A stretch of 64,000 nt of DNA from Candidatus Multivorans sp. (GTDB lineage: Bacteria > Acidobacteriota > Thermoanaerobaculia > Multivoradales > Multivoraceae). Under the pieces are notes generated by a model, which saw nothing but the letters and a program-made list of their open reading frames with translations, was not told the origin of the DNA and searched no databases. Where the stretch lies: positions 4,480,001-4,544,000 of the forward strand of contig OZ245033.1 of NCBI GenBank assembly GCA_965224025.1, written 5' to 3'. Positions 7,873 through 27,728 of this stretch are shown in pieces (position 1 is the stretch's first letter; each line of letters opens with the position of its first letter). Made by a program: the position numbers and the translations under genes.

Positions 7873-8025
7873 AACGAAGAGGACGGTTCCACACGCTGTC
7901 AGCAAGTCGGGGCGTGCTCCAGTTTCGGAGGCCGTCGACTTCGGTAACGTAGCGGGCGAGAGTCGCGTCGTGAGCCGAGCCCCTACACGAAGCGTCGCCC
8001 GGCAGGACGCGGGAGCGGTGGTGCT

Positions 8026-11000
8026 ATGAGCGCTGACTCCAAGGGCCGCGACCTTTTCATCGTCGACAACAGCGTCTCCGGCTGGACCGGGCTCCGCTAC
8101 CTACAGGAGTGGTCCGGTATCGCGAAGGCGTTCGACATCGCGACTGGCTACTTCGAGATCGGCGCTCTCCTCGCCCTCGACGGCAAGTGGCAGGGACTCG
8201 ACAAGATCCGGATCCTGATGGGCGCCGAGACCACCCATCGGACGCGACAGGCACTCCTTGAGGCCGTCCGCAAGCAGAGGCTCTGCGGCGACTCGATGAG
8301 AGCATCGAGGAAGACAAGCTGCCCAACCCGTTCCTGCGCGGGACTCCGGCAATCGTCGACGCTCTCCGCTCAGGCCAAATCGAGTGCCGTGTCTACGACC
8401 AAGCCAAGTTCCACGCCAAGGCGTACATCACTCACGCTAAGTTCGAGGTCATGGGTGCCCAGGCGTTGGTGGGTTCCAGCAACTTCACGCGCCCCGGCCT
8501 CGGCAAGAACGTCGAGCTGAACGTTCAGGTTCAGAGCGCCCGTGAGGTCGCTCAGCTCCAGGAGTGGTTCGAGACGCACTGGAACGAGGCGCGAGAGGTC
8601 ACCGACGACGTTGTCCAAACTATCTCCCGCCATACCCGCCTCTACTCGCCGTTTGACGTCTACGCGAAGGCTCTGCAGCAGTACTTTCGGGGGCACGAAC
8701 TGACCGAAGCCGAGTGGGAACAGTCACGATCACGGGTGTTCCAGCAACTCGACCGCTACCAGAAAGAGGCCTACTGGGCCCTGATGAAGATCGCACGGCA
8801 GCACGGCGGCGCGTTCCTCTGCGACGGCGTCGGTCTCGGTAAGACGTTCGTCGGCCTGATGTTGATCGAGCGGCTCATCTTGCACGAGGGTAAGAGGGTA
8901 GTGCTGTTCGCACCCAAGGCCACGAAGGAGGGTGTTTGGGAGCCCCACTTACGCCGCTGGCTTGATCACGTTGGCGGCTTCGGCGGCGGCGAAGACTTCA
9001 GCAACCTGGCCGTCTTCAGTCACACCGACCTCGGCAGAAAGGGCGACTTCCCGACGCGATTCGAACGGATCACGGAACTTGCCGATGTCGTGGTCATCGA
9101 CGAGGCCCACCACTTCCGCAACCCGGGCCGCCGAGGGGATCCCGAGAAGGGTATCGAGCCATCGCGCTACTACCAGCTATTCAACCTCCTCGACAACGAG
9201 GAACGCGCCAAGACGGTGTTCATGTTGACGGCGACGCCCATCAACAATCGACTGAGTGACTTCCGCCACATGACCGAGCTCTTCAGCCGCCGCGAAGAGG
9301 CCTACTTCGCACGCACGCTTGGCGTCAACCACCTGCGGGCGCACTTCAACCAGATGGAGAAAACGCTCCGCGGTCGACTCGGTCATGACGCCGCGGACGC
9401 CGCCGATCACATGACCGAGGCCCAGGACATCCTCTTCACTGACGCCTTCTTCCGCGAGCTCGTCGTCCAGAGGAGCCGCGCGTACGCGAAAGCAAGCCAG
9501 AAGCAAGAACGCGATGAACCAGCCACTTTCCCCGACCGGCAGGCGCCCCAGGTAGCGGAGTACTCGATCCGCACGACTTACGGGCAGATGCTCGACCTCT
9601 TCGAGAAGGCGTTCGCGAAACAGAACCCACTCTTCACGCTACCGATGTACTACCCACTGCATTGGTACAGGGGGGCCGACGCCAACATCGATCCGTTCGA
9701 GGAGAACCGCCAGAAGCAGGTCGTAGGACTCATCCGGACCAACTTCCTCAAGCGCTTCGAGAGCTCGGTCGCTGCCTTCGAGCTCTCCTGCGAACGCCTG
9801 CTCCAGAAGCTGCTCGCTTTCCTCGAGGTACACAGCGAGACCGACTCCGAGAGGAACAGCCTCGAGCGCTGGAAGGCGCAGCACGCGGACGACCTCGGCC
9901 ACAGCCAGCGGCAGCGGCAGCTCTGGGGCGATTCCGACGAAGCGGACGATGAAGACGTTGTGCCCCAGGAGCTGCTCGACGCGGTCGAAGGCCTCGAGCG
10001 GACGGAGTACAACGTCGAAGAGATACTGACCGAGACCTTCATCGACCTCGGAGAGATCGTGAAGTTCCTGAACGAGGCCCGCCGATTCGAGCCGAAGCAC
10101 GACGACAAGTTGAAGAAGCTCATCCGCCTGCTGAAGTCGAAGGAACTCGCCGACCAAAGGTCCTGATCTTCACCGAGTTCGCCGACACGGCCCGCTACCT
10201 CAAACGCCACTTGGACCAAGCTGGCATTGAGGGCGTCGAGCAAGTGGACAGCGCCACTAAGAAGAACCGCTCAGAAGTCATCCAGAACTTCGCGCCCTAC
10301 TACAACGGCCTCTCTTCCCCCGAGCTCGCCGAACAGCGCCGCCAAGAGACCCGGGTCCTCATCTCCACGGACGTCCTTTCCGAAGGTCTCAACCTCCAGG
10401 ACGCCTCCCGGATGATCAACTACGACATCCACTGGAACCCCGTCCGCCTGATGCAACGCATCGGCCGAGTAGACAGGCGCATGGACCCGGTTGTCGAAGA
10501 CCGGCTCGTGGCCGACCATCCCGAGGCAGGCGCGTCGCGGGGAAGGGTCTGCTTCTGGAACTTCCTCCCACCCGCGGAACTCAACGAGATCCTCTCGCTC
10601 TACAAACGGGTTACGCAGAAGACCCTGCTGATCTCCAAGACCCTCGGCATCGAGGGGAAGAAGCTCCTCACGCCGGACGATGACTACGACGCGCTGAAGG
10701 AGTTCAACCACGCCTACGAAGGCTCTCGAACTGCTGTCGAGGACATGCACCTCGAGTATCAGGAACTGCTCCAAGCCGACCCTGAGTTGGATGCGCGTCT
10801 GGCTCGCTTCCCCGGAGCGATCTTCAGCGGCCGCAGGCGCCCGGCGAAGGGTGTGCGGGGCGTCTTCTTCTGTTACGCGCTCCCCGCCCTCGACAAGGAG
10901 AAGAACGAGTTCACGCAGGAGGCCGGTACCACGGACTGGTACCTCTACGACCTCGACCGCGAGAACATCCTGGACGAACCGCGGGACATTGTGGCGAGTA

Positions 11001-11170
11001 TCCGCTCGAAAGTCCGGACGAAGCGCCGGTGCACCACGGAAGAGAAGACGCTCCTGGACATGCGCAGACGGGTCGAGAGGCACATCAAGAACGGCTACCT
11101 GAAGCGCCGGGACGCCCCCGCTGGTGTCAAGCCACGCCTTCACTGCTGGATGGAACTCAACGAGGATTGA
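8026..11170 (+). CDS. PLD-nuclease / SNF2-like SF2 helicase fusion, interrupted by two -1 frameshifts (~8275 and ~10157)
   Basis: Joins ORFs 8026, 8451 and 10211. PLD motifs ATGYF, FHAKAYI, VGSSNFT. Helicase motifs DGVGLGKT, DEAH, TATPINN, (K)VLIFTEFADT, STDVLSEGLNLQ, QRIGRVDR. Confidence 0.85.
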
Positions 11171-11174
11171 GTCG

Positions 11175-14100
11175 ATGCTGACCAACCACCGCGAACGCCT
11201 CGCCGGTATCCGGCGGTTCGACCAACTCGTCCGCTATCTCCGAAAGGACCTAGGCTGGCCCATCGTCTCGGACGACTTCCAGGCTCTTCCAGACGACCTG
11301 ACATTTGACTACACGGCGGAGGAGCTCGGGATCGATGCGAAGAACGCCGCAAAGATCCAGGAGATCAAACGTCTGCGCCCGCTCGTGGTCGGCCAACCCT
11401 GGGGCGTGTTCTTCGTCAAGTTCGCACCAAAACGCCTGCCCGTCGTAGCGCTTCGGCGGATCCTCCGACAAGTGGCGCAAAGGAGCCGTCCCTCGGCCAA
11501 CACGCCCGAGCGCCAAATGTGGGCAGCCGACGACCTGCTCTTCGTCTCGAACTACGGCGCGGGGGACGCGCGGCAGATCGCCTTCGCCCACTTCTCGGAG
11601 CCAAAGAGCCGACGCGACCTGCCCACACTTAAGGTCCTCGGCTGGGACAACTTGGATACTGGGCTTCACCTTGATGCCGTCGCTCGCGCTCTACGCAACC
11701 ACTTGACCTGGCCCGAGGACGAGGGCGACGCCGAAGCCTGGCGCGCCCAGTGGCGCACCGCCTTCGCACTTCGCCACCGTGAAGTCATCACGACCTCGCA
11801 GGAGCTCTCCCAGCGACTCGCAGAACTGGCCCGGGCAATCCGGGACCGCGCCACGACGGCGCTCTCGATCGAGAGTGAGTCAGGACCGCTCACCCAGCTT
11901 ATGGAGGCGTTCCGAGCTGCTCTCGTTCACGACCTGGACCGGGCTGGCTTCGCCGACATGTACGCCCAGACCATCGCCTACGGCCTGCTCTCCGCCCGCA
12001 TCACCGACCCCGAACGACCCACCGCAGACGACTTCGCTTCCCACATGAGGACCAACCCGTTTCTGCGAGAACTGCTGACGTCCTTTCTCCGCGCGGGGGG
12101 ACGGCGCGACACCGCCGGCGGCTACGGCCTCGACTTCGACGAACTGGGCGTTTCTGAGGTGGTGGAACTCCTCGACGAAGCGAAGATCGAAGCTGTGCTA
12201 CGAGACTTCGGCGACAGGAATCCTCAAGAAGACCCGGTCATCCACTTCTACGAGCACTTCCTCGCCTCCTACGACAAGGAGCAGAAGGTAAAGCGCGGCG
12301 TCTTCTACACGCCGCGCCCCGTCGTCTCCTACATCGCGCGCTCGGTGCACGAACTCCTGCGCACGGAGTTCGGCCTCGCGGACGGCCTCGCCGACACCAC
12401 CACATGGGGCGAGATGGCCGAACGCCACGAGGGCCTGGAGATCCCTAACGGCACACCGCCGAATCAGGCTTTCGTTCAGATCCTCGACCCAGCCACCGGC
12501 ACCGGCACGTTCCTCGTCGAGACGATCGACCTGATCCACAAGACAATGGCCGACAGGTGGAAGGCTCAAGGGCACGGTCCGAGGGCCATCGAGAGCTCTT
12601 GGAGCAAGTACGTCCCCGAACACCTCCTGCCCCGGCTGCACGGCTACGAGCTCCTCATGGCACCGTACGCCATTTCCCACCTCAAGATCGGCCTAAAGCT
12701 CCGGGAGACCGGCTACCGATTCGAGAAGGCCGTGCGTGCGCAGGTCTACCTGACGAACGCGCTGGAGCCGCCGGCGCATGCTCAGATCCCTATCGGCTTT
12801 CTGCCAGCGCTGGCCCATGAGGCCGCCGCCGTCCGCGACGTCAAGCGTCTGCGGCAATTCACGGCAATCATCGGGAATCCACCCTACGCCCAATACAGCT
12901 CGAATCTCCAGGACTTCGCCAAAGACCACATCGAAAGATTCAGGTACACCGGGGGAATCCGGACTCGCGCCCGCAACCCTCTCCAACTTGAGCGCAACCT
13001 GAACGACGACTACGTCAAGTTTCTTGGGTTCTCCGCGAGCGCCCTTCAAAGCGCGCCCGGCGTTCTCGGCTTCATCACCAACAGAATGTTCTTGGAGTCC
13101 GAGTCGCTCGTCGGCCTGCGAGAGTGGGTCAGTACACACTTCCGGAGCGCCTTCTTCCTGGATCTTCGCGGCAGCAGCGAGGAATCTCGTCGCGTTCCGC
13201 GACTAGCGGACGATCAGAATGTCTTCGAGATCCGGCAGGGCGTTGCTGTCTCTTTGCTAGTCAGCAGAGCTGGCATCGAGTCCGCCAGAGGCGCCACTGA
13301 CGAACCCGCCACGTTCGCCAGCGAGCCGTCGGTCCTGTCTCGCACAAGTACCAAGCCCTCGCCAACAGCCTCGGCGTCCGTCATTCCGGCTGGACGAAGC
13401 TCGCGCCGAGAGCACCGACGTGGCGACTGGACCTGGACGGTGAAGTTCCCGCAGCATCAGAGGCGAGCGCCAAGAGCCGCCTCCGCGCCTTCTCTCTCGA
13501 CCGTGTGTTCCGGGAGTTTTCGACTCTTGTAGCCAGCAACCGAGACCACTTGGTGGTTGCTTTCGACCGTGCCGAGGTGCTCGCCAACGCTACCAGCGTG
13601 CAGGCCTTTAGGGGAACTGACAAGGAACTATGTGACCATTTTTCTATTACTGCCAAGAAAGGTTGGAACATCGCGGCGGCTCGGCAGAAGCTCGCGGAAG
13701 TCGAGTCGATAGACGAATACGTCCAGGAGATCGAGTACCGCCCCTTCGATCGGCGCTTCATCTTCTTCCATCCAAGTCTGGTCTGGCAAACGGCACCTGT
13801 GTGCTCGCGGAACGTATCGGAGCGGACGAACAACCGTCTGCTGATTTCTCTAGGGAAGAACAGGGCAGACACGGCCAACGGCCAGTGGGTTAGCGGTGGC
13901 CTAGCGGACAAGAGTGTGGTCACGACGCGCGACAACGCGTCGGGGTTCCCCTTGTACCTGTACGCCGACAAGGGCAGTCGGGCGGTCCTGGACTTGGCGG
14001 ATACGAAGGACGAAGCGTGGCCCAACTTCCGGCGGGAGTTTATCGAGGGGATCTGCAGTGAGTTGGATCTGCCACCGGACGGCCCCTTCGGGCTGCCAAC

Positions 14101-15193
14101 TGGCATTCTCCCAGAGGACATCCTTCACTTCATCTACGCCTTGTTGCAGGCGCCGAGCTACCGGACGTACTGGCACCGCGAACTGGTTACAGGGTTTCCG
14201 CTCGTACCACTGCCGCCATCCCACGGACTCTTCAGGGACTTGGCACAGCGGGGATCGAGCTTGGCGGCCCTACACCTGCTCGCGTCCCCGAAGCTCGCCG
14301 ACACAACTACGGACTATGCCGGCCCCAGAGCCCCCGAGGTCGACCAGGTCGGCTGGTGTGAGGGCACAGTCTGGCTCGACGCTCTGAAGACCCTCGCCCG
14401 CAAGGGGCACCGAGCCACACAGGCCGGCACGATCGGCTTCCACGGAGTGCCCGAGGAAGTCTGGGATTTCCACATCGGCGGCTATCAGGTCTGCCACAAG
14501 TGGCTCAAGGACCGGAAGGGACGCACGCTCTCGGACGAGGACATCGCCCACTACCAGAGGATCGTCGTCGCCCTGAACGAGACGATCCAGATCATGGCGG
14601 AGATCGACAAGGTCATCGAGGACCACGGCGGTTGGCCCACAGCCTTCGAGCCCCGGTCGGCAACAGGCACAGATGCAGCGGAAGTGACGAAGGTCTTGCC
14701 GTTCCAGCCACGGAAAGTCGAGCCAGCGCCCGAGGACCGCTACGTCACCTGCGTGCCGCTCGTGCCGCTCGAGGCGGCAGCCGGCAGCTTCAGTGCCCAG
14801 CAGCTCGTCGAGGAGGACGCCGGATTCGAGTGGGCTGAAGTGCGGTCGCGCCACAGGTTGCGCCCAGGTATGTTCGTAGCCCAGGTCGTCGGCAGGTCTA
14901 TGGAGCCCACCGTCCCCGACGGCTCCTGGTGCCTTTTCCGGGGGCCCGTGGAGGGTTCCCGGCAGGGCAAGACCGTGTTGGTCCAACTTCGCGACGCCAC
15001 CGACCCGGAGACGGGGCAGCACTACACCGTCAAGAGCTACAGAAGCGAGAAAGCGAAGCGCGGCGAGTCCTGGCGCCACGAGAGGATCACCCTTGAACCC
15101 GCCAACCCGGAGTTCGAGTCGATCGTGCTCTTGGGTGCGGAGGAAGACGAACTGCAGGTCATCGCGGAACTGGTAGAGGTGCTGACGGACTGA
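11175..15193 (+). CDS. Type ISP-like N6-adenine DNA methyltransferase + target-recognition region + C-terminal S24 (LexA-like) peptidase, with one -1 frameshift at ~13310
   Basis: [29 protein letters not shown] (motif I), GNPPY (motif IV), DDYVKF. After the frameshift: [29 protein letters not shown] (Type ISP C-terminal-like), then PLEAAAGSF...GRSMEP...YTVK (S24). Confidence 0.85.
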
Positions 15194-15258: not shown

Positions 15259-15537
15259 TCAGTTCACGCCAACGCGAATCTCCCCGACAAGGGCGATAAG
15301 AGCGGCTGCCAAGCCAGCGGCGTCAGCAGGAGAAAGCTCAAAGCCGATTCCAGGGTCAGTATCGCTGGAAGGCTGAACAACCTGTGCAGGTCTACCGGCT
15401 GCCACCCGCCGCTGCAGATCGCGAGCAAACTGCTCAGCTTGGTTGAGTTCAAACACCACGTCAACGACCTCCCCGGTCTCCGGGTCCGACAGTTCTAGGC
15501 GCGCACGTTGTCCGTCGCGGTAGAGCGCAGGCTTCAC
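15259..15537 (-). CDS. Hypothetical protein (92 aa)
   Basis: Protein-like composition and 4-nt overlap with the upstream gene. Confidence 0.55.
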   Translation of the reverse strand: MKPALYRDGQRARLELSDPETGEVVDVVFELNQAEQFARDLQRRVAAGRPAQVVQPSSDTDPGIGFELSPADAAGLAAALIALVGEIRVGVN

Positions 15538-16187
15538 GGGTCTAGCATCCTGGCGTTGGCGACCATCGCCACCGCGTGCTCATCGCAAGTGACGGCTTGG
15601 TCTGTGCTTCGGTACTCCGCGAGCACCTGCTCTCGGACACGCCAACGGTCCTGAGCGTAGAACCGCGCTGAGCCCCTGAGCGCGTTCACGAGGTCGTTCG
15701 GCAACCCGGCGCACTCGGTCCCGCGATCAGGCGCGTAGGCCCAAGCCAAATCCTCGGCCCACTTCGAGCATGGAACACGGATTCCCCGGTTTGCTGCTGT
15801 ACGAAAGTCGTCGACGATCCGTTCTCTGTACTCCTCTCGGCTCGGGGCCCGCACTGCCAGGCGCCGGTAGCCGCCCACAGCCCCTGGCACAGGCAGGTTG
15901 ACGTCCAGCGCACCGAGGATCTGGCCAGCGATGGCTTGGCCCAACATCCGGTTCTGGGCGTGCTGTGCGAGTAGCTGTTCTTGGTTGACGATGGCGAAGC
16001 CATGACGCAGGACATCGATCGTCTGCGCGGACACGGCGGCGCAATCGTCAAGGCTGTTCGCGACCCGGTGTTCCTTCCGCTCGGCTATCCGCTGCTGGGC
16101 CCGCTCCAAGCCCGCGCGCGCCTGTGCCTCCGCGAGACCAGCGCAGACGAACGACGCGATCGCTGCTACGACGATGATCCTCCCCAT
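15534..16187 (-). CDS. Hypothetical secreted helical protein with an internal two-Cys repeat
   Basis: GAGGGG RBS, signal peptide (AEA), two CA...LR...R..C..A repeats. Confidence 0.7.
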   Translation of the reverse strand: MGRIIVVAAIASFVCAGLAEAQARAGLERAQQRIAERKEHRVANSLDDCAAVSAQTIDVLRHGFAIVNQEQLLAQHAQNRMLGQAIAGQILGALDVNLPVPGAVGGYRRLAVRAPSREEYRERIVDDFRTAANRGIRVPCSKWAEDLAWAYAPDRGTECAGLPNDLVNALRGSARFYAQDRWRVREQVLAEYRSTDQAVTCDEHAVAMVANARMLDP

Positions 16188-16236
16188 GGCAGTCCCCTCT
16201 CAGACCTTCTAGTGCACTGAATGCCATGATGCGCGC

Positions 16237-16464
16237 ATGCGCATCACGGTGACCATAGACGATGACGTACCGGCGGTGGCCAAAGTGCTGGGCGCGCGAA
16301 AGGGCTGCAGCCTGGGCAGCGCTCCGTCGGAACTTGCTCGGGACGGATTCAGGAGCGCCAGCCCCTTCCAAAAGGACGAAGACGCTACCGTCTTCGCCAT
16401 CCCCATCGATGCGGAGACCATCGCCAACGAGGACGTGTACCGATCACTAGTCGACTGGCCGTAG
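16237..16464 (+). CDS. VapB-like ribbon-helix-helix antitoxin, probably decaying
   Basis: MRITVTIDDDV...ELAR pattern typical of RHH antitoxins, with prolines at normally hydrophobic helix positions (DDDVPA, SAPSEL). Confidence 0.65.
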   Translation: MRITVTIDDDVPAVAKVLGARKGCSLGSAPSELARDGFRSASPFQKDEDATVFAIPIDAETIANEDVYRSLVDWP

Positions 16465-16506
16465 AACGAGCTGCTGGACGTGAACGTCCTCATCGAGCTC
16501 CCCTAG
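16465..16506 (+). pseudogene. Remnant of a VapC/PIN toxin N-terminus
   Basis: Reads ELLDVNVLIELP* directly after the antitoxin stop. LLDVNVL is the PIN first-strand motif. Confidence 0.6.
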
Positions 16507-16542: not shown

Positions 16543-16959
16543 TCAGGCGCCTTCGCCCGCCAAACGCAGTTCGTAGGGGTTCGTTACCGACAGGCCGCCC
16601 AGTGCCGCGAGCATCTCAAGAGGGTCGTCGGAGTTGATGCCCTTCATGGCTTCCTGGACGTCCTTCCGGCTGGTTGGCGGTTTCCGCACTTCAAAGAAGG
16701 GCCACAGGACCACACTCTTGTAGTTGCGGTCCTTCTTCGGGAACGCTGAGATCGGCGGCCCCGTGTACTCGGGCTCATAGCGAAAGACGAACGCACCATC
16801 TTCGCAAGACAGTTCCCCGATCAGCTCCCGCCCGTGCGCCCTGCTCCGCCGGACGACCTGAAGCCTCTTCCCCGTCGACTCGGGTGGCGCGACGCGCTGG
16901 CGACGAATCCCTGAAGCCCGAAGTAGTTGGTCCAAGGCCCTTTGAACTGACTTGCTCAT
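16543..16959 (-). CDS. HipA N-terminal (HipS/Couple_hipA-like) domain protein, putative antitoxin
   Basis: IGEL...FVFRY...LWPFFEVRKP pattern. ATGA overlap with the upstream kinase. Confidence 0.7.
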   Translation of the reverse strand: MSKSVQRALDQLLRASGIRRQRVAPPESTGKRLQVVRRSRAHGRELIGELSCEDGAFVFRYEPEYTGPPISAFPKKDRNYKSVVLWPFFEVRKPPTSRKDVQEAMKGINSDDPLEMLAALGGLSVTNPYELRLAGEGA

Positions 16960-17993
16960 GGCCGATCCTCCTCACGCAGCCGGCGAATCCGAAACTCCAG
17001 CAGGTCCACGATGAGCCTCAGGCGTCGTTGGGTGATGATGCGCCGGAAGCGTCGCTGCAGCATCCTCTCGATCGTCGGAACGGACACCGCGTCGAAGACG
17101 GCCCGCATCGCCGGGAAGAGATCCGGGTGTTCCCGCGCGATTCCCGTCACAAGTCCGAAGTGATTCTGGCTCACCGCTCCTCCCACCGAGAGAATCGGCC
17201 GCGAACGAAGAGCATACCGTTCGACGAACCCCTGTCCCTGACGCTCCGCTTGCCGGGCCAAGTCGGCATCGGAGTGATTGACGAAGAGACCCCGGGCCGT
17301 GTCGAAGATCGGCGCGAATCGCACAGGAGCGCCGCCCGGGTCGAGGGACTCCAGGACTCCCCAGTTCATGCCGTGGCGATCCGGTGCTCCGACGAACGCA
17401 TCGAACGCGAGCATCTTGACGAAGTCCACCGCAAGCGCGCCCGAGTCCTCGCCATAGAGCGCCTTCAGAATCGTCAGCATGTTCCCCACCGTGTAGAACT
17501 GTCGCTCCTCCTTCCGGTCGGCAAGCCCAAAGGTGGCGGCCACCTCCTCCTGTGTCGAGTCGAAGTAGGCAGCGGCAAGCTCGATGCCATGGCGCAGCGC
17601 CTCGTGTTCGACGTGCACGAAGTCGCGAGAGAGAAACCGCACGTCGTCCTTCGCCACCCGAACGAGCCGCGACCGGGCCATCCGCACCGGGAGCATCGCC
17701 CCAACCTTCGAGATGATCTCCTCCGTGACGCACTCGCGAGCGTCAGCCTGGAACCGCCCCTTCTTCGCGATGTAGCCGCAATCACCAAGTGATGGGCTGT
17801 GACGACCCGCTGTCCTTCCAACCACGCGCGGAGCACCGTATGCCAGGTAGTCCTTCGGCACCGTGCCGATCAGGGACACCTCGCCGAAGGGAACAAGCCT
17901 CCAGCCGCCAGGCTTCAGGAGAGGAATGGCCCGGACGTTCACCTCCGCCCGGCTCGGCGTGGTGGTGAAGCGGTCCCTGCGCCGCCATGCCAC
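16956..17993 (-). CDS. HipA-like Ser/Thr kinase toxin
   Basis: GTVPKDY loop, YIAKK, ECVTE, FLSRDF, FDAFVGAPDRHGMNWG (catalytic loop), FAPIFDTARGL. Confidence 0.85.
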   Translation of the reverse strand: MAWRRRDRFTTTPSRAEVNVRAIPLLKPGGWRLVPFGEVSLIGTVPKDYLAYGAPRVVGRTAGRHSPSLGDCGYIAKKGRFQADARECVTEEIISKVGAMLPVRMARSRLVRVAKDDVRFLSRDFVHVEHEALRHGIELAAAYFDSTQEEVAATFGLADRKEERQFYTVGNMLTILKALYGEDSGALAVDFVKMLAFDAFVGAPDRHGMNWGVLESLDPGGAPVRFAPIFDTARGLFVNHSDADLARQAERQGQGFVERYALRSRPILSVGGAVSQNHFGLVTGIAREHPDLFPAMRAVFDAVSVPTIERMLQRRFRRIITQRRLRLIVDLLEFRIRRLREEDRP

Positions 17994-24014: not shown

Positions 24015-27000
24015 ATGTGGTTGACTGGCAACCGCCAGCGCAGCGTAGTTCCTGGCGCGAACTGGACTCTAATGAGGCTTTGTAGGCTACACATCCTTTT
24101 ACGAACCACGCTTCTTGCGGCGTTCTTTGTCGCCTATGGCTCTCCGGTGAAAGGAGAGGGCGAGTTCACCGTGCGATTGGCCGAAAGGCTTGGTGCCGGC
24201 GGCGCTAGCAGCATGGTTTCGCTCTACGAACCGTGTGCGTCCTACGACTGCGGCGTCGAACTCCTCACCGGCATGCCGAAGCTCCGGCCTGAATTCAGGA
24301 GGCCCTTCGAAGCCGGTCGACTGTTTCGCGGAGTAGCGCCCGAGGGAGATATTTGGTGGGTGGTCGTCGAAAGCCAGGGTCATATGCCGATGGCGTTGCT
24401 ATGGCGGCCGCCCGTGGCAGTCGGTGATTTACCACCCGCGCCGGTGGTCAGCGCTGCGATGTGCTCCATCGATGTGCGCGACGGCGACGGTCGCGCCATC
24501 GAAGGCGCGATAGCTCTTCCCCGTGGCGTTGGCGTGCCGACGGAGTCACGCCCTTCTCTGTTCAACGACTGGCGCCCGTGGTCCCCGCCTTCCGTGGCGA
24601 ACGAACAAGGCAGGATCGTACTCCGGGTTCCATCCGAAGCCAGCCTGCCGTTCCTGGTGGGTGCGCGAGACCACGGATTCAAGAGAGGGATTTGCTCACG
24701 GGACAGCCACTCAACTGTCGTACTCCCGAAACGGCAGACCCGCATGCTTGAAGTGTTCACAACGGAGGGCGAGCCCTTGGCGGCTGCGCTGGCCAGATCT
24801 GCGGACGGTTGGCCCTTGGCAGTCACCGATGAAGACGGGCGCCTTGAGCTGCCGACAGCCGAGAAAGGCCTGGTCGAGAGCAGCGGGCCGAGCCTAAGCG
24901 GGCTCTGGTTCGAAACCACTGCCGGCGCCGTTTACGACGTCACCGGTCAGCGTGCAGATCGGGTTTCTGTGGCGTCCGTCTCCAACACCTACCAAGGTAC
25001 GATCTATCTTGTGCCCATCCCGCCGGAGTTCGTGGCGAGTCGCGCCTCGGTGTCTGGCACTTCCGATGTCCAGTATTGGCGCCAGCGAAGTCCGCCGTGG
25101 CCCGCTGTAGACCAGCGAGCCGCATCTCCGCTAAGGCAGGCAACGAACGGTCAGTACCGCGAAGTGCTTCTACCGGAGGAGGCTCTCTGGTTTTCCGCTC
25201 CGGGCCGCGCATACGAGTACTGCCGGGCAAAATCCCTTGACAACAACGGCCCCCGACGAGAGACCAAAGACGGTGCACCATGCCCGCAGATGTTGCCGGC
25301 GCGCTCTGTGAACGGAAGGGTCGTGGACGACGCGGGCGCTCCGATACCCGATGCAGAGATTCTCCTAGACTGGACTCAAGGAACCACGGCCGGCACTCCC
25401 ACAGTGATTGAGGGCATGGCCATGGGTTCTCCAACTGCGTCGCTGCTGCTCCTTCGCTCCGGAGCGAACGGCAGCTTCCACAGCGACCGGGTGGGCGTTC
25501 GGGTCACAGCAGCAAGACCGTTCAGGGACTTTGCGGGCATCAGGGTTAGGGGCGAGGGCTACCTCCCAGTGACATGGGGAAACATCCAGCGCTTCGAGAA
25601 AGGCCCCGGCCGCTATGAAGTTCCCCTTCAGCGGGGCGTTCCGGTCACTGGACGGATACTGGATCCACGGACGGATACACCGATAGAAGGTGCGGAGATC
25701 GCTCTGGGACGCTTCGCGTCCTCCGGCTACACCCTCGCGCTTGGACCGTTGGACCGAGAGTACAGCCCCTATGGGAACGCCGTCCGATTCACTCGAACCG
25801 TTGCGGACGGCTCCTTTAGACTCATGAGCTGGCTTGGCCAATGGGATCTTCTGGTCCGAGCAGCGGGTCGGGTTCAACACCAAGTCAAAGGCTTTGAACT
25901 GGGACCCCAGGGACTCGATCTCGGCATCATTCGGCTTGAACGGGGCTTCGAGATCGAGGGCATCGTCCACGACGGCTCGCGGAACCCTATACCGTCGGCT
26001 CGAGTTGAAGTGGCCGGTATTCGAACCGAAGGTGCGTTCGGTCGCGATCGATCCGGCCCCGACCGACGCTTCAACGAAGCGGCGATCGTAGTGAGCGCTC
26101 AAGATGGCCGTTTCGTCGCTACGGGCTTGGCGGAAGACTCATATGTGAATCTACGCGTACGGGCAAGCGGCTTCGCGGAGAAGATCGTCGAGAAACGGTC
26201 GCCGACGACAACGCGACTCTTGGAAATCGCACTCGAACCGGAGGCTGTGATCGCGGGGAGGGTGACCCTCGACGGTGGTCCAGTTTCCGGGCGTGTCAGG
26301 CTCTTCGAGCCACGAAGGCCGTTCCCGATTCGATCGCTTGACGTCGACGAAGACGGCGAGTTCGAGTTTGCCGGTGTCGGAGCTAACCGATACAGCCTCG
26401 AAGTCAAGGTAGGGCGACCTGACATCGAGCCTTGGCGATCGGCGGTCGAAGCAAGAGCGGGGCACGTGACAGAGGTCGCCGTCACGTTGGAGGCGAAGCC
26501 GGGGGATCGGACCTTGTTCGGAACGGTCGCAGAGAAGGGAATAGGCGTGCCCAACGTTGAAGTACGCGCCAGCGGCTTGAGAACCGTGACGGACGGAAGT
26601 GGTCGCTACGAAATCCACGGCCTGCGGCCTGGTTTTCACAGCGTTGCCGCGGACCGCGGCAACGAATCGTCTCCCTCGATTGAATCAGTGCGAATCCGCG
26701 ACCGCACGGCGCGGCTCGACTTTGACTTCAGCGAGGCTCGAACCCAAGGAACCGCGTACTGGAGTGACAACTCCCCGGTCGCATTGACGAAGTTGCGGTT
26801 CTTCGGCGGCCGTCCGGTAGTGATAGTGGAGACCGATGCCGGCGGCACATTCGATGTGTATCTAGAACACGGGCAGTACATCGTGTCCACGGTCCCCGAC
26901 GACGGCGACCCTGTGGCCAGTCGGCAACGTCTGAACGTCACGGGACCGGAATCCGACCTCCGGATTGTCTTCGGTCGTCAGAGGATCGCGGGCAGTGTGG

Positions 27001-27728
27001 TGGGACTGACCAAGCAGGAACTGGGACGCCTTAGAGTCGAAGCAGTGAACCTGGACGACCTAGACACCCGCCCGGCCAAGGTCGACTCGTCGGGGCACTA
27101 CGTCATTGAGCGCATCGACAGTGGGCGCTGGAACGTGGTCGGGACCGTTGGCGCTGCGGAGCGGCGCGCCTCACGGGAGGTACTAGTGGGCCGGGACCAC
27201 GTCGAGGTCAACCTAGAGTTCAAACGTCTTCTTGGCCTCAGTGGAGTTGTACGGCTGGACGGCATACCGCTCAACTCAACGCGAGTCATCCTAGCGAAGG
27301 ATCTCGTCTGGGCAGAAATGCGACAAACATGGACGGTGGATGACGGGAGCTTCCACTTCAGCGACCTTGAACGGGGACACTACAGAATCGGCGTTGGCGC
27401 CAGCATCCGCGACGCTCGGCTCAGCAGCGACGAGCACATGGTGATCGACCTCGGTAGCGGGTGAATCCGCGGTATGGTCCTGGACCCAGAGACATCGGTG
27501 CCGAAGGCAGGCGCCCGGGTGCGTCTCTGGCCCGCTTTGGCCACGCAGTCAGAGGCGACCCAACTCGGCGTGATCTTGCAGACCTTCACCGACACAGCCG
27601 GCGAGTTCGCGTTCGATCAAGTGCCTGAAGGAGAGTGGGCGGTGGAGAGCCTGGAGATCCCAGGTTCGCGTGTAACCGTGCAAGTCGCGCCTGGTGCCTT
27701 GGCAACGGTGCTGTTGCCAAGACCGTGA
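24015..27728 (+). CDS. Large carboxypeptidase-regulatory-like (transthyretin-fold) repeat surface protein with a premature in-frame TGA at 27462-27464
   Basis: Repeated GRV.D..G.PI.GA.I / T...G.F...GL..G.Y modules. ORF 27474..27728 is in the same frame and completes the last repeat (GSG*IRGMVLDPET). The start is uncertain (ATG 24015 or ATG 24072). Confidence 0.75.

What the first reader, a model, noticed from the sequence alone, without database searches (positions are those of the whole stretch)
14750..15193. LexA-like S24 autopeptidase fused to the C-terminus of the DNA methyltransferase
Seen in sequence: after the TRD and a flexible linker ([12 protein letters not shown]) the frame continues into [13 protein letters not shown] (Ala-Gly scissile site), VVGRSMEP (catalytic Ser) and YTVK (catalytic Lys), with no HTH. 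Established: S24 domains of LexA, UmuD and CI dimerise and self-cleave at Ala-Gly when stimulated by RecA-ssDNA filaments. Inference: the RM complex may be switched on or off by DNA damage or phage ssDNA, for example built-in restriction alleviation during SOS or infection-triggered activation. This is the strongest candidate for an undescribed regulatory mechanism in the window.
Basis: partly seen in the sequence, partly recalled or inferred. Interest (0 to 1): 0.82.

Follow-up and report, generated by a model that had tools for sequence, protein, structure and literature searches.

The report
LexA-like self-cleaving tail, broken restriction gene
The end of this restriction-modification gene encodes a genuine LexA-type self-cutting protease module that also caps many other bacterial DNA-cutting defence enzymes and may tie them to the DNA-damage signal, but the copy in this genome sits in a gene already killed by a frameshift.

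Summary
Window 14693-15190 encodes a roughly 165-residue S24 module with an EAAA|G site, a GRSMEP serine and a YTVK lysine. It matches Pfam PF00717, and a confident model superposes on LexA's C-terminal domain (Z 12.7).

It is the tail of a Type ISP-like methyltransferase/specificity subunit (11175-15193), paired with an upstream PLD-SNF2 helicase-nuclease gene (8026-11170).

Both genes are dead here. They carry three 1-bp losses (about 8280, 10156, 13326) that are present in contigs of sequencing runs, and relatives are intact at two of these sites.

The fusion is not unique: 1378 long proteins carry the module. In 123 representative domains Ser is kept in 123, Lys in 121 and Ala-Gly in 113. 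The module caps at least 11 defence-enzyme architectures, including an intact DruE-like helicase elsewhere in this genome. It is optional: 42 of the 120 closest methyltransferases have it.

Cleavage would leave [AVIL]-Ala-Ala-COOH in 116 of 123, like LexA's latent ClpXP degron and the host ssrA tag (…LAA). My best reading, which is inferred, is a RecA*-triggered self-destruct fuse that gives restriction alleviation.

Nine literature searches found no description. This scan has noted the module before on other DNA (48 notes).

The parts
8026..11170 (+). Pseudogene of a PLD(HKD)-nuclease + SNF2 helicase, the motor/nuclease partner of the methyltransferase. It is read in three frames (7978-8310, 8280-10160, 10157-11167).
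   Evidence: Pfam finds PLDc_2, SNF2-rel_dom, ResIII and Helicase_C. PADLOC matches C3a139 'HKD+Snf2' at 1.7e-31. Aligned to the intact helicase of L006 it is 80-88% identical in three frames. The same gene is intact and adjacent in L006-L011.
8275..8282 (+). First frame break of the helicase gene (approximate place).
   Evidence: The tblastn pieces switch frame after ...EAVRKQ. Contigs of X1/X2 identical to the window span 8067-8582.
10156..10157 (+). Second frame break of the helicase gene, a 1-bp loss.
   Evidence: Other contigs in runs X1-X4 carry an extra G behind 10156, while contigs identical to the window span 9743-10190.
11175..15193 (+). Pseudogene of the Type ISP-like methyltransferase + specificity (TRD) subunit with a C-terminal S24 module. 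It would be about 1340 aa if intact.
   Evidence: tblastn of P0001 (1336 aa) gives residues 1-716 at 11175-13325 and 718-1336 at 13328-15190, in different frames. Pfam finds N6_Mtase, Eco57I, Type_ISP_C and Peptidase_S24. PADLOC matches REase_MTase_IIG PDLC03610.
13326..13327 (+). Frame break of the methyltransferase gene, a 1-bp loss.
   Evidence: A 2244-base contig in X1 and in X2 is identical to the window over 12237-14480. Relatives' contigs in X3 and X4 have an extra T behind 13326.
13505..15193 (+). It holds the TRD and the S24 module only.
   Evidence: Pfam places Type_ISP_C at aa 2-365 and Peptidase_S24 at aa 423-556.
14693..15190 (+). The portable S24 module, from the conserved lead-in (V-[ILV]-P-F-R-P-R...RY.TC[VI]P) to the end of the protein.
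   Evidence: Conservation profile across 121 sequences. Homologues on other architectures start to match at about this point. The model is confident from about residue 11 on. LexA aligns to model residues 28-178.
14774..14785 (+). Predicted self-cleavage site Ala-Ala-Ala|Gly, with the cut predicted between 14782 and 14783.
   Evidence: The Ala-Ala at P2-P1 is kept in 121 and 120 of 121 sequences and Gly in 116 of 121. Ala-Gly is kept in 113 of 123 representative domains.
14897..14899 (+). Predicted nucleophile Ser (in GRSMEP).
   Evidence: Ser is kept in 121/121 and 123/123. It aligns with the GDSM serine of M. tuberculosis LexA.
15032..15034 (+). Predicted general-base Lys (in YTVK).
   Evidence: Lys is kept in 121/121 and 121/123. 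It aligns with the TVK of M. tuberculosis LexA.

Best explanation
SHOWN. The feature is the 3' end of a frameshift-inactivated gene for the methyltransferase/specificity subunit of a two-gene, Type ISP-like restriction-modification system (PLD-SNF2 helicase-nuclease gene, then the MTase-TRD gene). The protein ends in a portable, roughly 165-residue LexA-type S24 module with a complete cleavage site and Ser-Lys dyad. The module is an optional cap. It is found on many unrelated DNA-targeting defence enzymes, almost always at the extreme C-terminus.

INFERRED (mechanism in intact homologues). As in LexA, the module cuts its own chain at Ala|Gly, most likely when it docks on RecA-ssDNA filaments. 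Because the module is C-terminal, the cut removes only the module. It leaves the whole enzyme ending in ...[A/V/I/L]-Ala-Ala-COOH, the kind of C-terminus that ClpXP reads on ssrA-tagged proteins and on the LexA N-terminal fragment. The enzyme is then degraded. The result would be a protein-level, LexA-independent fuse that shuts restriction off when the cell's own DNA is damaged or is being cut by the enzyme itself, that is, built-in restriction alleviation.

In this genome the system is dead, so nothing is regulated here.
For: Identity of the module: Pfam, fold and profile alignment to M. tuberculosis LexA at the Ser and Lys motifs.

Selection on catalysis:
- Window plus the 120 best long hits: Ser 121/121, Lys 121/121, P2-P1 Ala-Ala 121 and 120 of 121, Gly 116/121.
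- 150 representatives at 50% clustering, 123 domains covering all sites: Ser 123, Lys 121, Ala-Gly 113.

C-terminal position: the module ends within 30 residues of the protein's end in 129 of 150 representatives.

Partner enzymes: Pfam was run on 59 of the 149 newly listed representatives, those of 300 aa or more.
- Families found: Type_ISP_C (13), HsdR-type (6), MZB/DUF1998 helicases (4), SLFN-g3 helicase (3), HNH_4 (3), PLDc_2 (2), SLFN AlbA_2 (2), ResIII (2).
- One each: MmeI-type, N6_Mtase only, RE_endonuc, McrBC, LlaJI.
- Nineteen had no other family.

Optional cap: among the 120 closest homologues of the MTase N-terminal 700 aa (67-85% identity), 42 have the module and 78 lack it, 58 of those at 1125 aa or more.

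Degron argument:
- P3-P1 is AAA 89, VAA 18, IAA 7, LAA 2, that is [AVIL]AA in 116 of 123.
- The host tmRNA tag is ANDELALAA.
- The host has ClpX, RecA and its own LexA with an IAA|G site.
- Passages read in PMC5742171 state that LexA-like proteins carry buried ClpXP C-degrons directly next to the cleavage site, which destroy the N-terminal fragment after cleavage.
- Passages read in PMC4231737 show that restriction alleviation of EcoKI works by ClpXP proteolysis of HsdR, with the degron unidentified.

Dead copy.
Against: No biochemistry exists. Self-cleavage, RecA* dependence and ClpXP degradation are all inferred.

Ala-Ala before the cut may be only a substrate preference of this S24 subfamily and not a degron.

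In the ISP-like systems the cap is on the MTase-TRD subunit, not on the nuclease-motor. Cleavage followed by degradation would therefore also stop methylation, unlike classical alleviation, which spares the methylase.

A damage-triggered off switch could be exploited by phages that induce RecA*.

Ten of 123 domains lack Ala-Gly (AT 4, AS 3, SG 1, CG 1, TG 1) and 2 lack Lys.

Most close homologues do without the cap (78 of 120), so it is not essential to the enzyme.

Many ISP-type copies are decayed: 5 of 11 loci, and several genomes.

The module tree is poorly resolved, with 5 of 35 branches well supported.
Confidence: 0.45

Rival explanations
1. Activation switch. The C-terminal module keeps the enzyme inactive, by autoinhibition or sequestration. 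RecA filaments formed on phage or damaged DNA trigger its removal, which turns the defence on (a zymogen-like infection sensor).
For: The conserved site and dyad and the C-terminal position fit this as well as they fit an off switch. The module also caps enzymes with no known self/non-self methylation mark, such as the DruE-like helicase, Schlafen-type helicases and AlbA_2. For those an infection trigger would make sense. PMC10732053 (search listing and abstract only) reports a defence system activated by phage SSB or DNA damage.
Against: Closely related methyltransferases (67-85% identity) exist without the cap, so the enzyme does not need removal of a cap to work. The Ala-Ala end left on the enzyme (116 of 123) resembles a degradation signal, which would be odd on a freshly activated enzyme. 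R-M enzymes already discriminate by methylation.
Confidence: 0.2
2. Structural module only. The S24 fold serves as a dimerisation or docking domain, as it does in LexA and CI dimers, bringing two translocating enzymes or subunits together. Cleavage is absent, or is constitutive maturation without a signal.
For: LexA, CI and UmuD C-terminal domains are the top structural matches. From general knowledge, these domains are the dimerisation domains of their proteins, and Type ISP and Type I cleavage needs two converging motors. The lead-in (residues about 13-35) is conserved and packs confidently on the domain.
Against: A pure scaffold would not need Ser in 123/123, Lys in 121/123 and Ala-Gly in 113/123 domains across diverse architectures.
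Confidence: 0.15
3. Trans-acting protease. The module cleaves another protein, for example the partner helicase-nuclease, the host LexA, or a phage repressor or other phage protein, and not its own chain.
For: From general knowledge, UmuD is cleaved intermolecularly within dimers. The dyad is intact.
Against: The module carries its own conserved LexA-like site at the LexA-like distance from the Ser. The partners differ completely between architectures, so no common trans substrate is evident.
Confidence: 0.05

Closest known systems
LexA repressor C-terminal domain (MEROPS S24, Pfam PF00717)
   Same: Same fold: Z 12.3-12.7 to E. coli and T. maritima LexA, with model residues 28-178 aligned to LexA 73-198. 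Same Ser-Lys dyad. Same x-Ala-Ala|Gly site at the same distance from the Ser. The NP[DE]F.PI strand is also shared.
   Different: There is no winged-helix DNA-binding domain. The N-terminal 'cargo' is a roughly 1150-aa enzyme instead. Identity to LexA structures is only 19-24%, and the host's own LexA is a separate, dissimilar gene. The module has extra elements: a conserved 20-residue lead-in and a long hairpin (residues 123-147). The Pfam score is only just above the cut-off.
Lambda CI and UmuD (other S24 self-cleaving proteins)
   Same: Fold: Z 12.0 to CI in its RecA-filament complex 8gmu_A, and Z 10.5 to UmuD'.
   Different: As I recall, and did not check here, their sites are Gln-Ala|Gly and Gln-Cys|Gly, without the Ala-Ala end. 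The module is LexA-like in this respect.
ClpXP-dependent restriction alleviation of Type I enzymes (EcoKI HsdR)
   Same: Proteolytic removal of a restriction subunit protects the host chromosome when unmodified sites arise (PMC4231737, passages read). The same module caps HsdR-type proteins (P0090 and P0104; six representatives).
   Different: EcoKI has no S24 domain, its degron is unknown, and according to that paper its alleviation does not rely on a general SOS response. Here the trigger and the degron would be built into the enzyme.
Type ISP restriction-modification enzymes (LlaGI/LlaBIII type)
   Same: Type_ISP_C specificity domain (3.5e-56) and a gamma-type N6-adenine methylase. A single-chain relative with Mrr nuclease, helicase, MTase, TRD and the S24 module exists (P0119, 1827 aa).
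   Different: The system is split into two genes and uses a PLD (HKD) nuclease with an SNF2 motor, not Mrr with an SF2 helicase on the same chain. It has the extra S24 cap. It is broken in this window.
Streptococcus mutans IrvR/HdiR (LexA-like regulators with degrons exposed by self-cleavage)
   Same: Two-step logic: self-cleavage exposes a C-degron next to the site, and Clp proteases then remove the N-terminal fragment (PMC5742171, passages read).
   Different: Those are small transcription factors. Here the fragment to be removed would be a large defence enzyme. According to the abstract of PMC7101444 (listing only), IrvR cleavage is RecA-independent. The trigger for the module may therefore also not be RecA.

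Membership tests
Peptidase S24 (LexA/UmuD/CI type; Pfam PF00717) | Profile match above the curated cut-off | tested here: met
   28.6 bits against a cut-off of 23.3, E 1.3e-6, aa 423-556 of the ORF. Homologues score 23.7-48.9 bits.
Peptidase S24 (LexA/UmuD/CI type; Pfam PF00717) | Ser nucleophile and Lys general base at the family's positions | tested here: met
   GRSMEP and YTVK align with GDSM and TVK of M. tuberculosis LexA. Ser is kept in 123/123 and Lys in 121/123 representative domains.
Peptidase S24 (LexA/UmuD/CI type; Pfam PF00717) | Ala-Gly (or Cys-Gly) self-cleavage site N-terminal of the Ser | tested here: met
   The window has EAAA|G 38 residues before the Ser. Ala-Gly is kept in 113 of 123 domains and Cys-Gly is found in 1.
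Peptidase S24 (LexA/UmuD/CI type; Pfam PF00717) | LexA C-terminal-domain beta fold | tested here: met
   Model pLDDT 86.5. Foldseek's best 26 hits (E up to 0.001) are LexA, CI and UmuD chains. VIA-align Z is 12.7, 12.3 and 12.0.
Peptidase S24 (LexA/UmuD/CI type; Pfam PF00717) | Self-cleavage, stimulated by RecA-ssDNA filaments or high pH | not testable with these tools
   This needs purified protein. The host has RecA.
LexA repressor (orthologue) | N-terminal winged-helix DNA-binding domain | tested here: not met
   No such domain was found. The residues before the module are Type_ISP_C. The genome's LexA is elsewhere (C1:2257392).
Type ISP R-M enzyme (LlaGI type, single polypeptide) | Type_ISP_C specificity domain plus N6-adenine methylase | tested here: met
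   Type_ISP_C at 3.5e-56, with N6_Mtase and Eco57I in the upstream frame. The two are continuous in homologue P0001.
Type ISP R-M enzyme (LlaGI type, single polypeptide) | Mrr-type nuclease and helicase on the same chain | tested here: not met
   The nuclease is PLD type and the motor is SNF2, and both are encoded by a separate upstream gene.
Type ISP R-M enzyme (LlaGI type, single polypeptide) | Intact reading frames | tested here: not met
   There are three frame breaks, and contigs of sequencing runs agree with the window at these places.
DISARM (DrmD/DrmMI/DrmA/DrmB/DrmC) | Family-level matches to the Drm proteins | tested here: not met
   NCBIfam DrmD and DrmC matches score 16.5-60.9 bits against cut-offs of 133-950. 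No DrmA or DrmB gene was seen next to the pair.
ssrA-like (C-terminal Ala-Ala) ClpXP degron, latent as in LexA | Non-polar-Ala-Ala at the C-terminus created by cleavage | tested here: met
   [AVIL]AA in 116 of 123 domains. The window has AAA. The host ssrA tag ends in LAA.
ssrA-like (C-terminal Ala-Ala) ClpXP degron, latent as in LexA | ClpXP-dependent degradation of the cleaved enzyme | not testable with these tools
   This needs in vivo or in vitro degradation assays. The host has ClpX.

The most novel reading that the evidence does not exclude
The S24 cap is a general 'SOS fuse' for DNA-targeting immune enzymes. RecA filaments trigger self-cleavage, which unmasks an Ala-Ala ClpXP degron and destroys the enzyme. 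This would be a protein-level, LexA-independent branch of the damage response. It would provide restriction alleviation, and protection from autoimmunity, for at least eleven otherwise unrelated enzyme architectures (Type I, ISP, IIG, III and IV restriction enzymes, PLD and HNH nucleases, Druantia-type and Schlafen-type helicases).
Probability: 0.3. Interest if true: 0.85.

Novelty: new variant of a known kind. Interest (0 to 1): 0.62.

Why it matters
Restriction alleviation is understood mechanistically only for a few Type I enzymes, and even there the ClpXP degron is unknown (PMC4231737, passages read). How other nucleases avoid killing the host after DNA damage, or on arrival in a naive cell, is largely open.

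A self-contained LexA-type module that can be attached to any defence enzyme would be a simple, testable answer. It would also link the SOS signal directly to immunity at the protein level.

Nature supplies controls. Methyltransferases 67-85% identical over their first 700 residues exist with and without the cap. The module could also serve as a portable damage-responsive degradation tag.

For this window the practical message is more modest: the copy is a decaying pseudogene.

Tried and rejected
- Homodimer prediction of the module (complex prediction) returned 'no answer' (score 0.00 against a mark of 0.42). It says nothing either way about dimerisation.
It was repeated with the single window protein.
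- Nine literature searches combined S24 / LexA-like / Peptidase_S24 with restriction-modification, Type ISP, methyltransferase, anti-phage, HsdR, Druantia, restriction alleviation and domain architecture.
  - None returned a paper describing an S24 domain on a restriction or defence enzyme.
  - The library lacks most subscription journals, so this is not proof of absence.
- Neher et al. 2003 (PMC196044) is not held. The LexA degron is cited through PMC5742171 and from recall. Supplements of PMC4231737 (HsdR degron mutants) were not read.
- The look-up of sequencing runs listed no RNA holder, so nothing can be said about expression.
- Assembly error as the cause of the frameshifts was rejected.
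  - Contigs of runs X1 and X2 are identical to the window across all three sites.
  - Other long ORFs in the window are intact.
  - X1 and X2 are one sample and may be the source sample, so they are not independent of the assembly.
- Programmed frameshifting was rejected. There are three separate 1-bp losses in two genes, and relatives have uninterrupted frames.
- Recent duplication of the host LexA was rejected. The host LexA C-terminal domain is dissimilar and has a different site context.
- DISARM membership was rejected.
- Short homologues are mostly fragments or tails of broken genes. I found no clear free-standing form of the module, but I did not examine their contigs.
Full report
1. 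WHAT IS THERE

Pfam finds two domains in it: Type_ISP_C at aa 2-365 (E 3.5e-56) and Peptidase_S24 at aa 423-556 (E 1.3e-6, 28.6 bits against a cut-off of 23.3). All quoted motifs are at the stated places:
- EAAAG at 14771-14785.
- The serine of GRSMEP at 14897-14899.
- The lysine of YTVK at 15032-15034.

An AlphaFold2 model of the last 178 residues, built with an alignment of 58 sequences (A1), is confident: pLDDT 86.5 and pTM 0.81. It is weak only at residues 43-49, directly after the predicted cut.

Foldseek's best matches are C-terminal domains of LexA, followed by lambda CI and UmuD', including their complexes with RecA filaments. Signal peptidases come far behind. VIA-align gives:
- Z 12.7 (rmsd 2.9 A, 123 residues) to T. 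maritima LexA.
- Z 12.3 to E. coli LexA, with model residues 28-178 on LexA 73-198, so the cleavage-site region is included.
- Z 12.0 to CI and Z 10.5 to UmuD'.

A profile of A1 finds M. tuberculosis LexA in the PDB sequences (E 1.1e-3). That alignment places GKSM on GDSM and TVK on TVK. There is no DNA-binding domain.

2. THE GENE IS BROKEN

The methylase catalytic part (N6_Mtase, Eco57I) lies in a different frame, in ORF 11124-13532. An intact homologue (P0001, 1336 aa) aligns to 11175-13325 in one frame (88% identity) and to 13328-15190 in another (86%). One base is missing at 13326, and not in a long homopolymer.

The gene upstream encodes a PLD(HKD) nuclease fused to an SNF2 helicase (Pfam; PADLOC 'HKD+Snf2' at 1.7e-31). 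It is broken twice, at about 8280 and at 10156.

Evidence that the breaks are real:
- The genome is 5.14 Mb in 3 contigs and scored 100% complete.
- Other long ORFs in the window are uninterrupted and give full-length Pfam matches, for example the 922-aa PQQ dehydrogenase.
- Contigs of two public runs (X1, X2) are identical to the window across 8067-8582, 9743-10190 and 12237-14480. X1 and X2 are one sample and possibly the source, so they are not independent.
- Contigs of relatives carry an extra G behind 10156 (X1-X4) and an extra T behind 13326 (X3, X4), which restores the frame.

I conclude that these are real inactivating mutations. Both genes are pseudogenes, sitting in a lower-GC islet (62-64% against 68-70% in the flanks).

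3. THE SYSTEM IN INTACT FORM

In named MAGs from several phyla, six loci (L006-L011) carry an uninterrupted helicase gene immediately followed by an uninterrupted MTase-TRD-S24 gene. The hosts are a Vicinamibacteraceae bacterium, two Ca. Binatia, a Spirochaetia bacterium, Ca. Versatilivorator and Ca. Foliamicus. The helicase is 81-88% identical to the window's pieces, and the MTase is 55-82% identical to P0001.

Five further ISP-type loci are truncated or interrupted (L004, L005, L012, L013, L014). Among 101 related genomes several ISP-type copies sit in short open frames or contain stops (G001, G012, G025, G038), while G019 and G067 look whole. This system decays often.

Along the protein, identity to P0001 has these medians:
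- 74% in the N-terminal 340 residues.
- 61% in the methylase domain.
- 40% in the specificity domain.
- 71% in the S24 module.

4. THE FUSION IS WIDESPREAD AND THE CATALYTIC FEATURES ARE KEPT

A search with residues 385-562 among long proteins (985-2810 aa) gave 1378 hits at E up to 0.001, out of 2409 candidates. The 120 listed are 67-86% identical. Of these, 118 carry Type_ISP_C, one of them (P0119, 1827 aa) a single-chain Mrr-helicase-MTase-TRD form. Two (P0090, P0104) are HsdR-type.

In these 120 plus the window, Ser and Lys are invariant (121/121). The two alanines before the cut are present in 121 and 120 of 121, and the glycine in 116 (Ser 3, Asn 1, Ala 1). The window deviates at two otherwise nearly fixed positions. 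It has Glu for Lys/Arg before AAAG (Glu in 4 of 121). It has Ser for Arg after the catalytic Lys, the only such case in 121. This would fit relaxed selection, weakly.

An exhaustive HMMER search of 1.84 billion representatives found 1829 clusters at E up to 1e-3, 1077 at 1e-10 and 177 at 1e-30. Among the best 150, 123 domains cover all sites:
- Ser 123, Lys 121.
- Ala-Gly 113; the rest are AT 4, AS 3, SG 1, CG 1, TG 1.

The module ends within 30 residues of the C-terminus in 129 of 150. Many of the 21 exceptions are partial matches.

5. A PORTABLE, OPTIONAL CAP

Pfam on the 59 representatives of 300 aa or more (59 of the 149 newly listed) shows the module behind these families:
- Type_ISP_C (13), HsdR-type domains (6), MrfA-Zn/DUF1998 giant helicases (4).
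- Schlafen-group-3 helicases (3), HNH_4 (3), PLDc_2 (2), Schlafen AlbA_2 (2), ResIII (2).
- One each of MmeI-type IIG, N6_Mtase only, RE_endonuc, McrBC and LlaJI.
- Nineteen have no other family.

On a quick maximum-likelihood tree of 38 modules with 11 architecture labels, 19 label changes are needed. The minimum is 10 and the shuffled mean is 24.0, with 0 of 200 shuffles as low. Only 5 of 35 branches are well supported. Those alone force at least two origins each for the ISP, HsdR, MZB, SLFN-g3 and ResIII groups.

The same genome holds a second, intact copy on a 2199-aa DruE-like helicase, 53.6% identical in the module to the window's. See for its location and domains. In related genomes the module (E up to 1e-25) is present in 37 of 101 including the window's own, and in 25 of 41 others of the same genus, mostly on frames of about 2050-2340 aa or about 930 aa.

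The cap is also dispensable. Among the 120 closest homologues of the MTase N-terminal 700 residues (67-85% identical), 42 have the module and 78 lack it. Of the 78, 58 are 1125 aa or longer. Most of these end 10-45 residues after the shared GGWP.AF motif. Some tails look like out-of-frame read-through, judged from composition. Two carry a different unassigned tail of about 200 aa.

6. MECHANISM

Shown: a LexA-type fold, site and dyad under purifying selection, at the extreme C-terminus of DNA-targeting defence enzymes.

Inferred, step 1: the module cuts its own chain at Ala|Gly.

Inferred, step 2: the trigger is RecA-ssDNA, as for LexA, CI and UmuD. The host has RecA, LexA and ClpX. A RecA-independent trigger is possible. 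[quoted passage not shown]

Inferred, step 3 is my addition. Because the module is C-terminal, the cut leaves the entire enzyme ending in [A/V/I/L]-Ala-Ala-COOH (116 of 123; AAA in 89). This resembles the host's ssrA tag end, ANDELALAA.
- Passages of PMC5742171 state that E. coli LexA and S. mutans IrvR carry buried ClpXP C-degrons directly next to the cleavage site, and that these destroy the N-terminal fragment after cleavage.
- The LexA end VAA is my recollection of Neher et al. 2003, which I could not read.

Inferred, step 4: degradation removes the enzyme and gives restriction alleviation. The precedent is ClpXP proteolysis of EcoKI HsdR, whose degron was never found (PMC4231737, passages).

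Points against this mechanism:
- Ala-Ala may be a substrate requirement only.
- In the ISP-like systems the cap is on the MTase-TRD subunit, so methylation would stop too.
- A damage-triggered off switch is exploitable by phages.
- Nothing has been measured.

Rival readings are an activation switch, a pure dimerisation module and a trans-protease. They are weighed in their own sections.

7. COMPARISON AND NOVELTY

By profile, dyad, site and fold the module is a member of peptidase family S24. It is not a LexA orthologue, because it has no DNA-binding domain and the host has its own LexA. The enzyme is Type ISP-like in its TRD and methylase. It is not a LlaGI-type single-chain enzyme, because it is split and uses PLD-SNF2. 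It is not DISARM.

Nine full-text searches found no description of S24 domains on restriction or defence enzymes. Automatic annotations merely call such proteins 'SOS-response transcriptional repressor LexA' or 'S24 family peptidase'.

This scan has met the module before: 48 notes in at least 45 genomes, on HsdR, Res, Type II, DUF2075 and other enzymes. None of the notes found by the words S24, ClpX and degron raises the degron reading. I rate it a new variant of a known kind: a known self-cleaving module in a new role.

8. VERDICT

Confidence by claim:
- The module is a true S24 domain, and the genes here are dead: above 0.9.
- The full RecA-to-cleavage-to-ClpXP alleviation chain: about 0.3-0.45.

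Interest 0.62. The family-level question is attractive and directly testable with natural capped and uncapped enzymes. This particular copy is a pseudogene.

Noticed in passing
L023 3737-10336 (G000:C1, about 4.745-4.751 Mb, outside the window): An intact 2199-aa DruE-like (Druantia-type) helicase with DEAD, Helicase_C and MrfA-Zn domains ends in a second copy of the S24 module (53.6% identical to the window's). It is followed by an AriA/AriB-like (PARIS-type) pair at L023 10453-11847 and 11884-12765, and preceded by a ThiF/E1-like gene (609-2189) that matches PADLOC E1-E2 models.
   Followed up: partly
window 16543-17993 (- strand): HipA-like toxin parts lie in two overlapping ORFs: HipA_C in 16956-17993 and the HipA N-terminal 'Couple_hipA' domain in 16543-16959. 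This is either a split kinase toxin-antitoxin arrangement or a broken hipA. Two small unassigned ORFs (16209-16493, 15534-16187) lie between it and the R-M pseudogenes.
   Followed up: no
P0398, P0413, P0427, P0457 and similar; P0417 and P0463: Cap-less relatives of the methyltransferase carry alternative C-terminal tails. One is a short conserved tail (...LLKVAESSPPYD.GKGGKK...). In two proteins there is an unassigned domain of about 200 aa with no Pfam match. The C-terminus after the GGWP.AF motif looks like a swap point for accessory modules.
   Followed up: partly
L004, L005, L012, L013, L014; G001, G012, G025, G038: ISP-type copies of the system are frequently truncated, interrupted by 1.2-1.5 kb insertions, or carry stops in relatives. 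The DruE-like capped helicase, in contrast, is mostly in long open frames in the same genus.
   Followed up: partly
G000:C1:1078052-1078399 and 1081483-1081830; G000:C2:21820-22602 and C1:2353512-2354291: There are two tmRNA genes 3.4 kb apart with the same tag (ANDELALAA), and two full-length RecA matches on different contigs. These are either duplications or a trace of the 5.66% contamination estimate.
   Followed up: no
window 24015-27464 (+): A second lower-GC stretch (63% at 24-28 kb) holds a 1149-aa protein with repeated carboxypeptidase-regulatory-like domains. It is unrelated to the finding.
   Followed up: no
window 11175-12190 (N-terminal 340 residues of the methyltransferase): The N-terminal region of the MTase subunit has no Pfam family but is the most conserved part of the protein (median 74% identity among homologues). 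It may be the interface with the helicase-nuclease partner.
   Followed up: no
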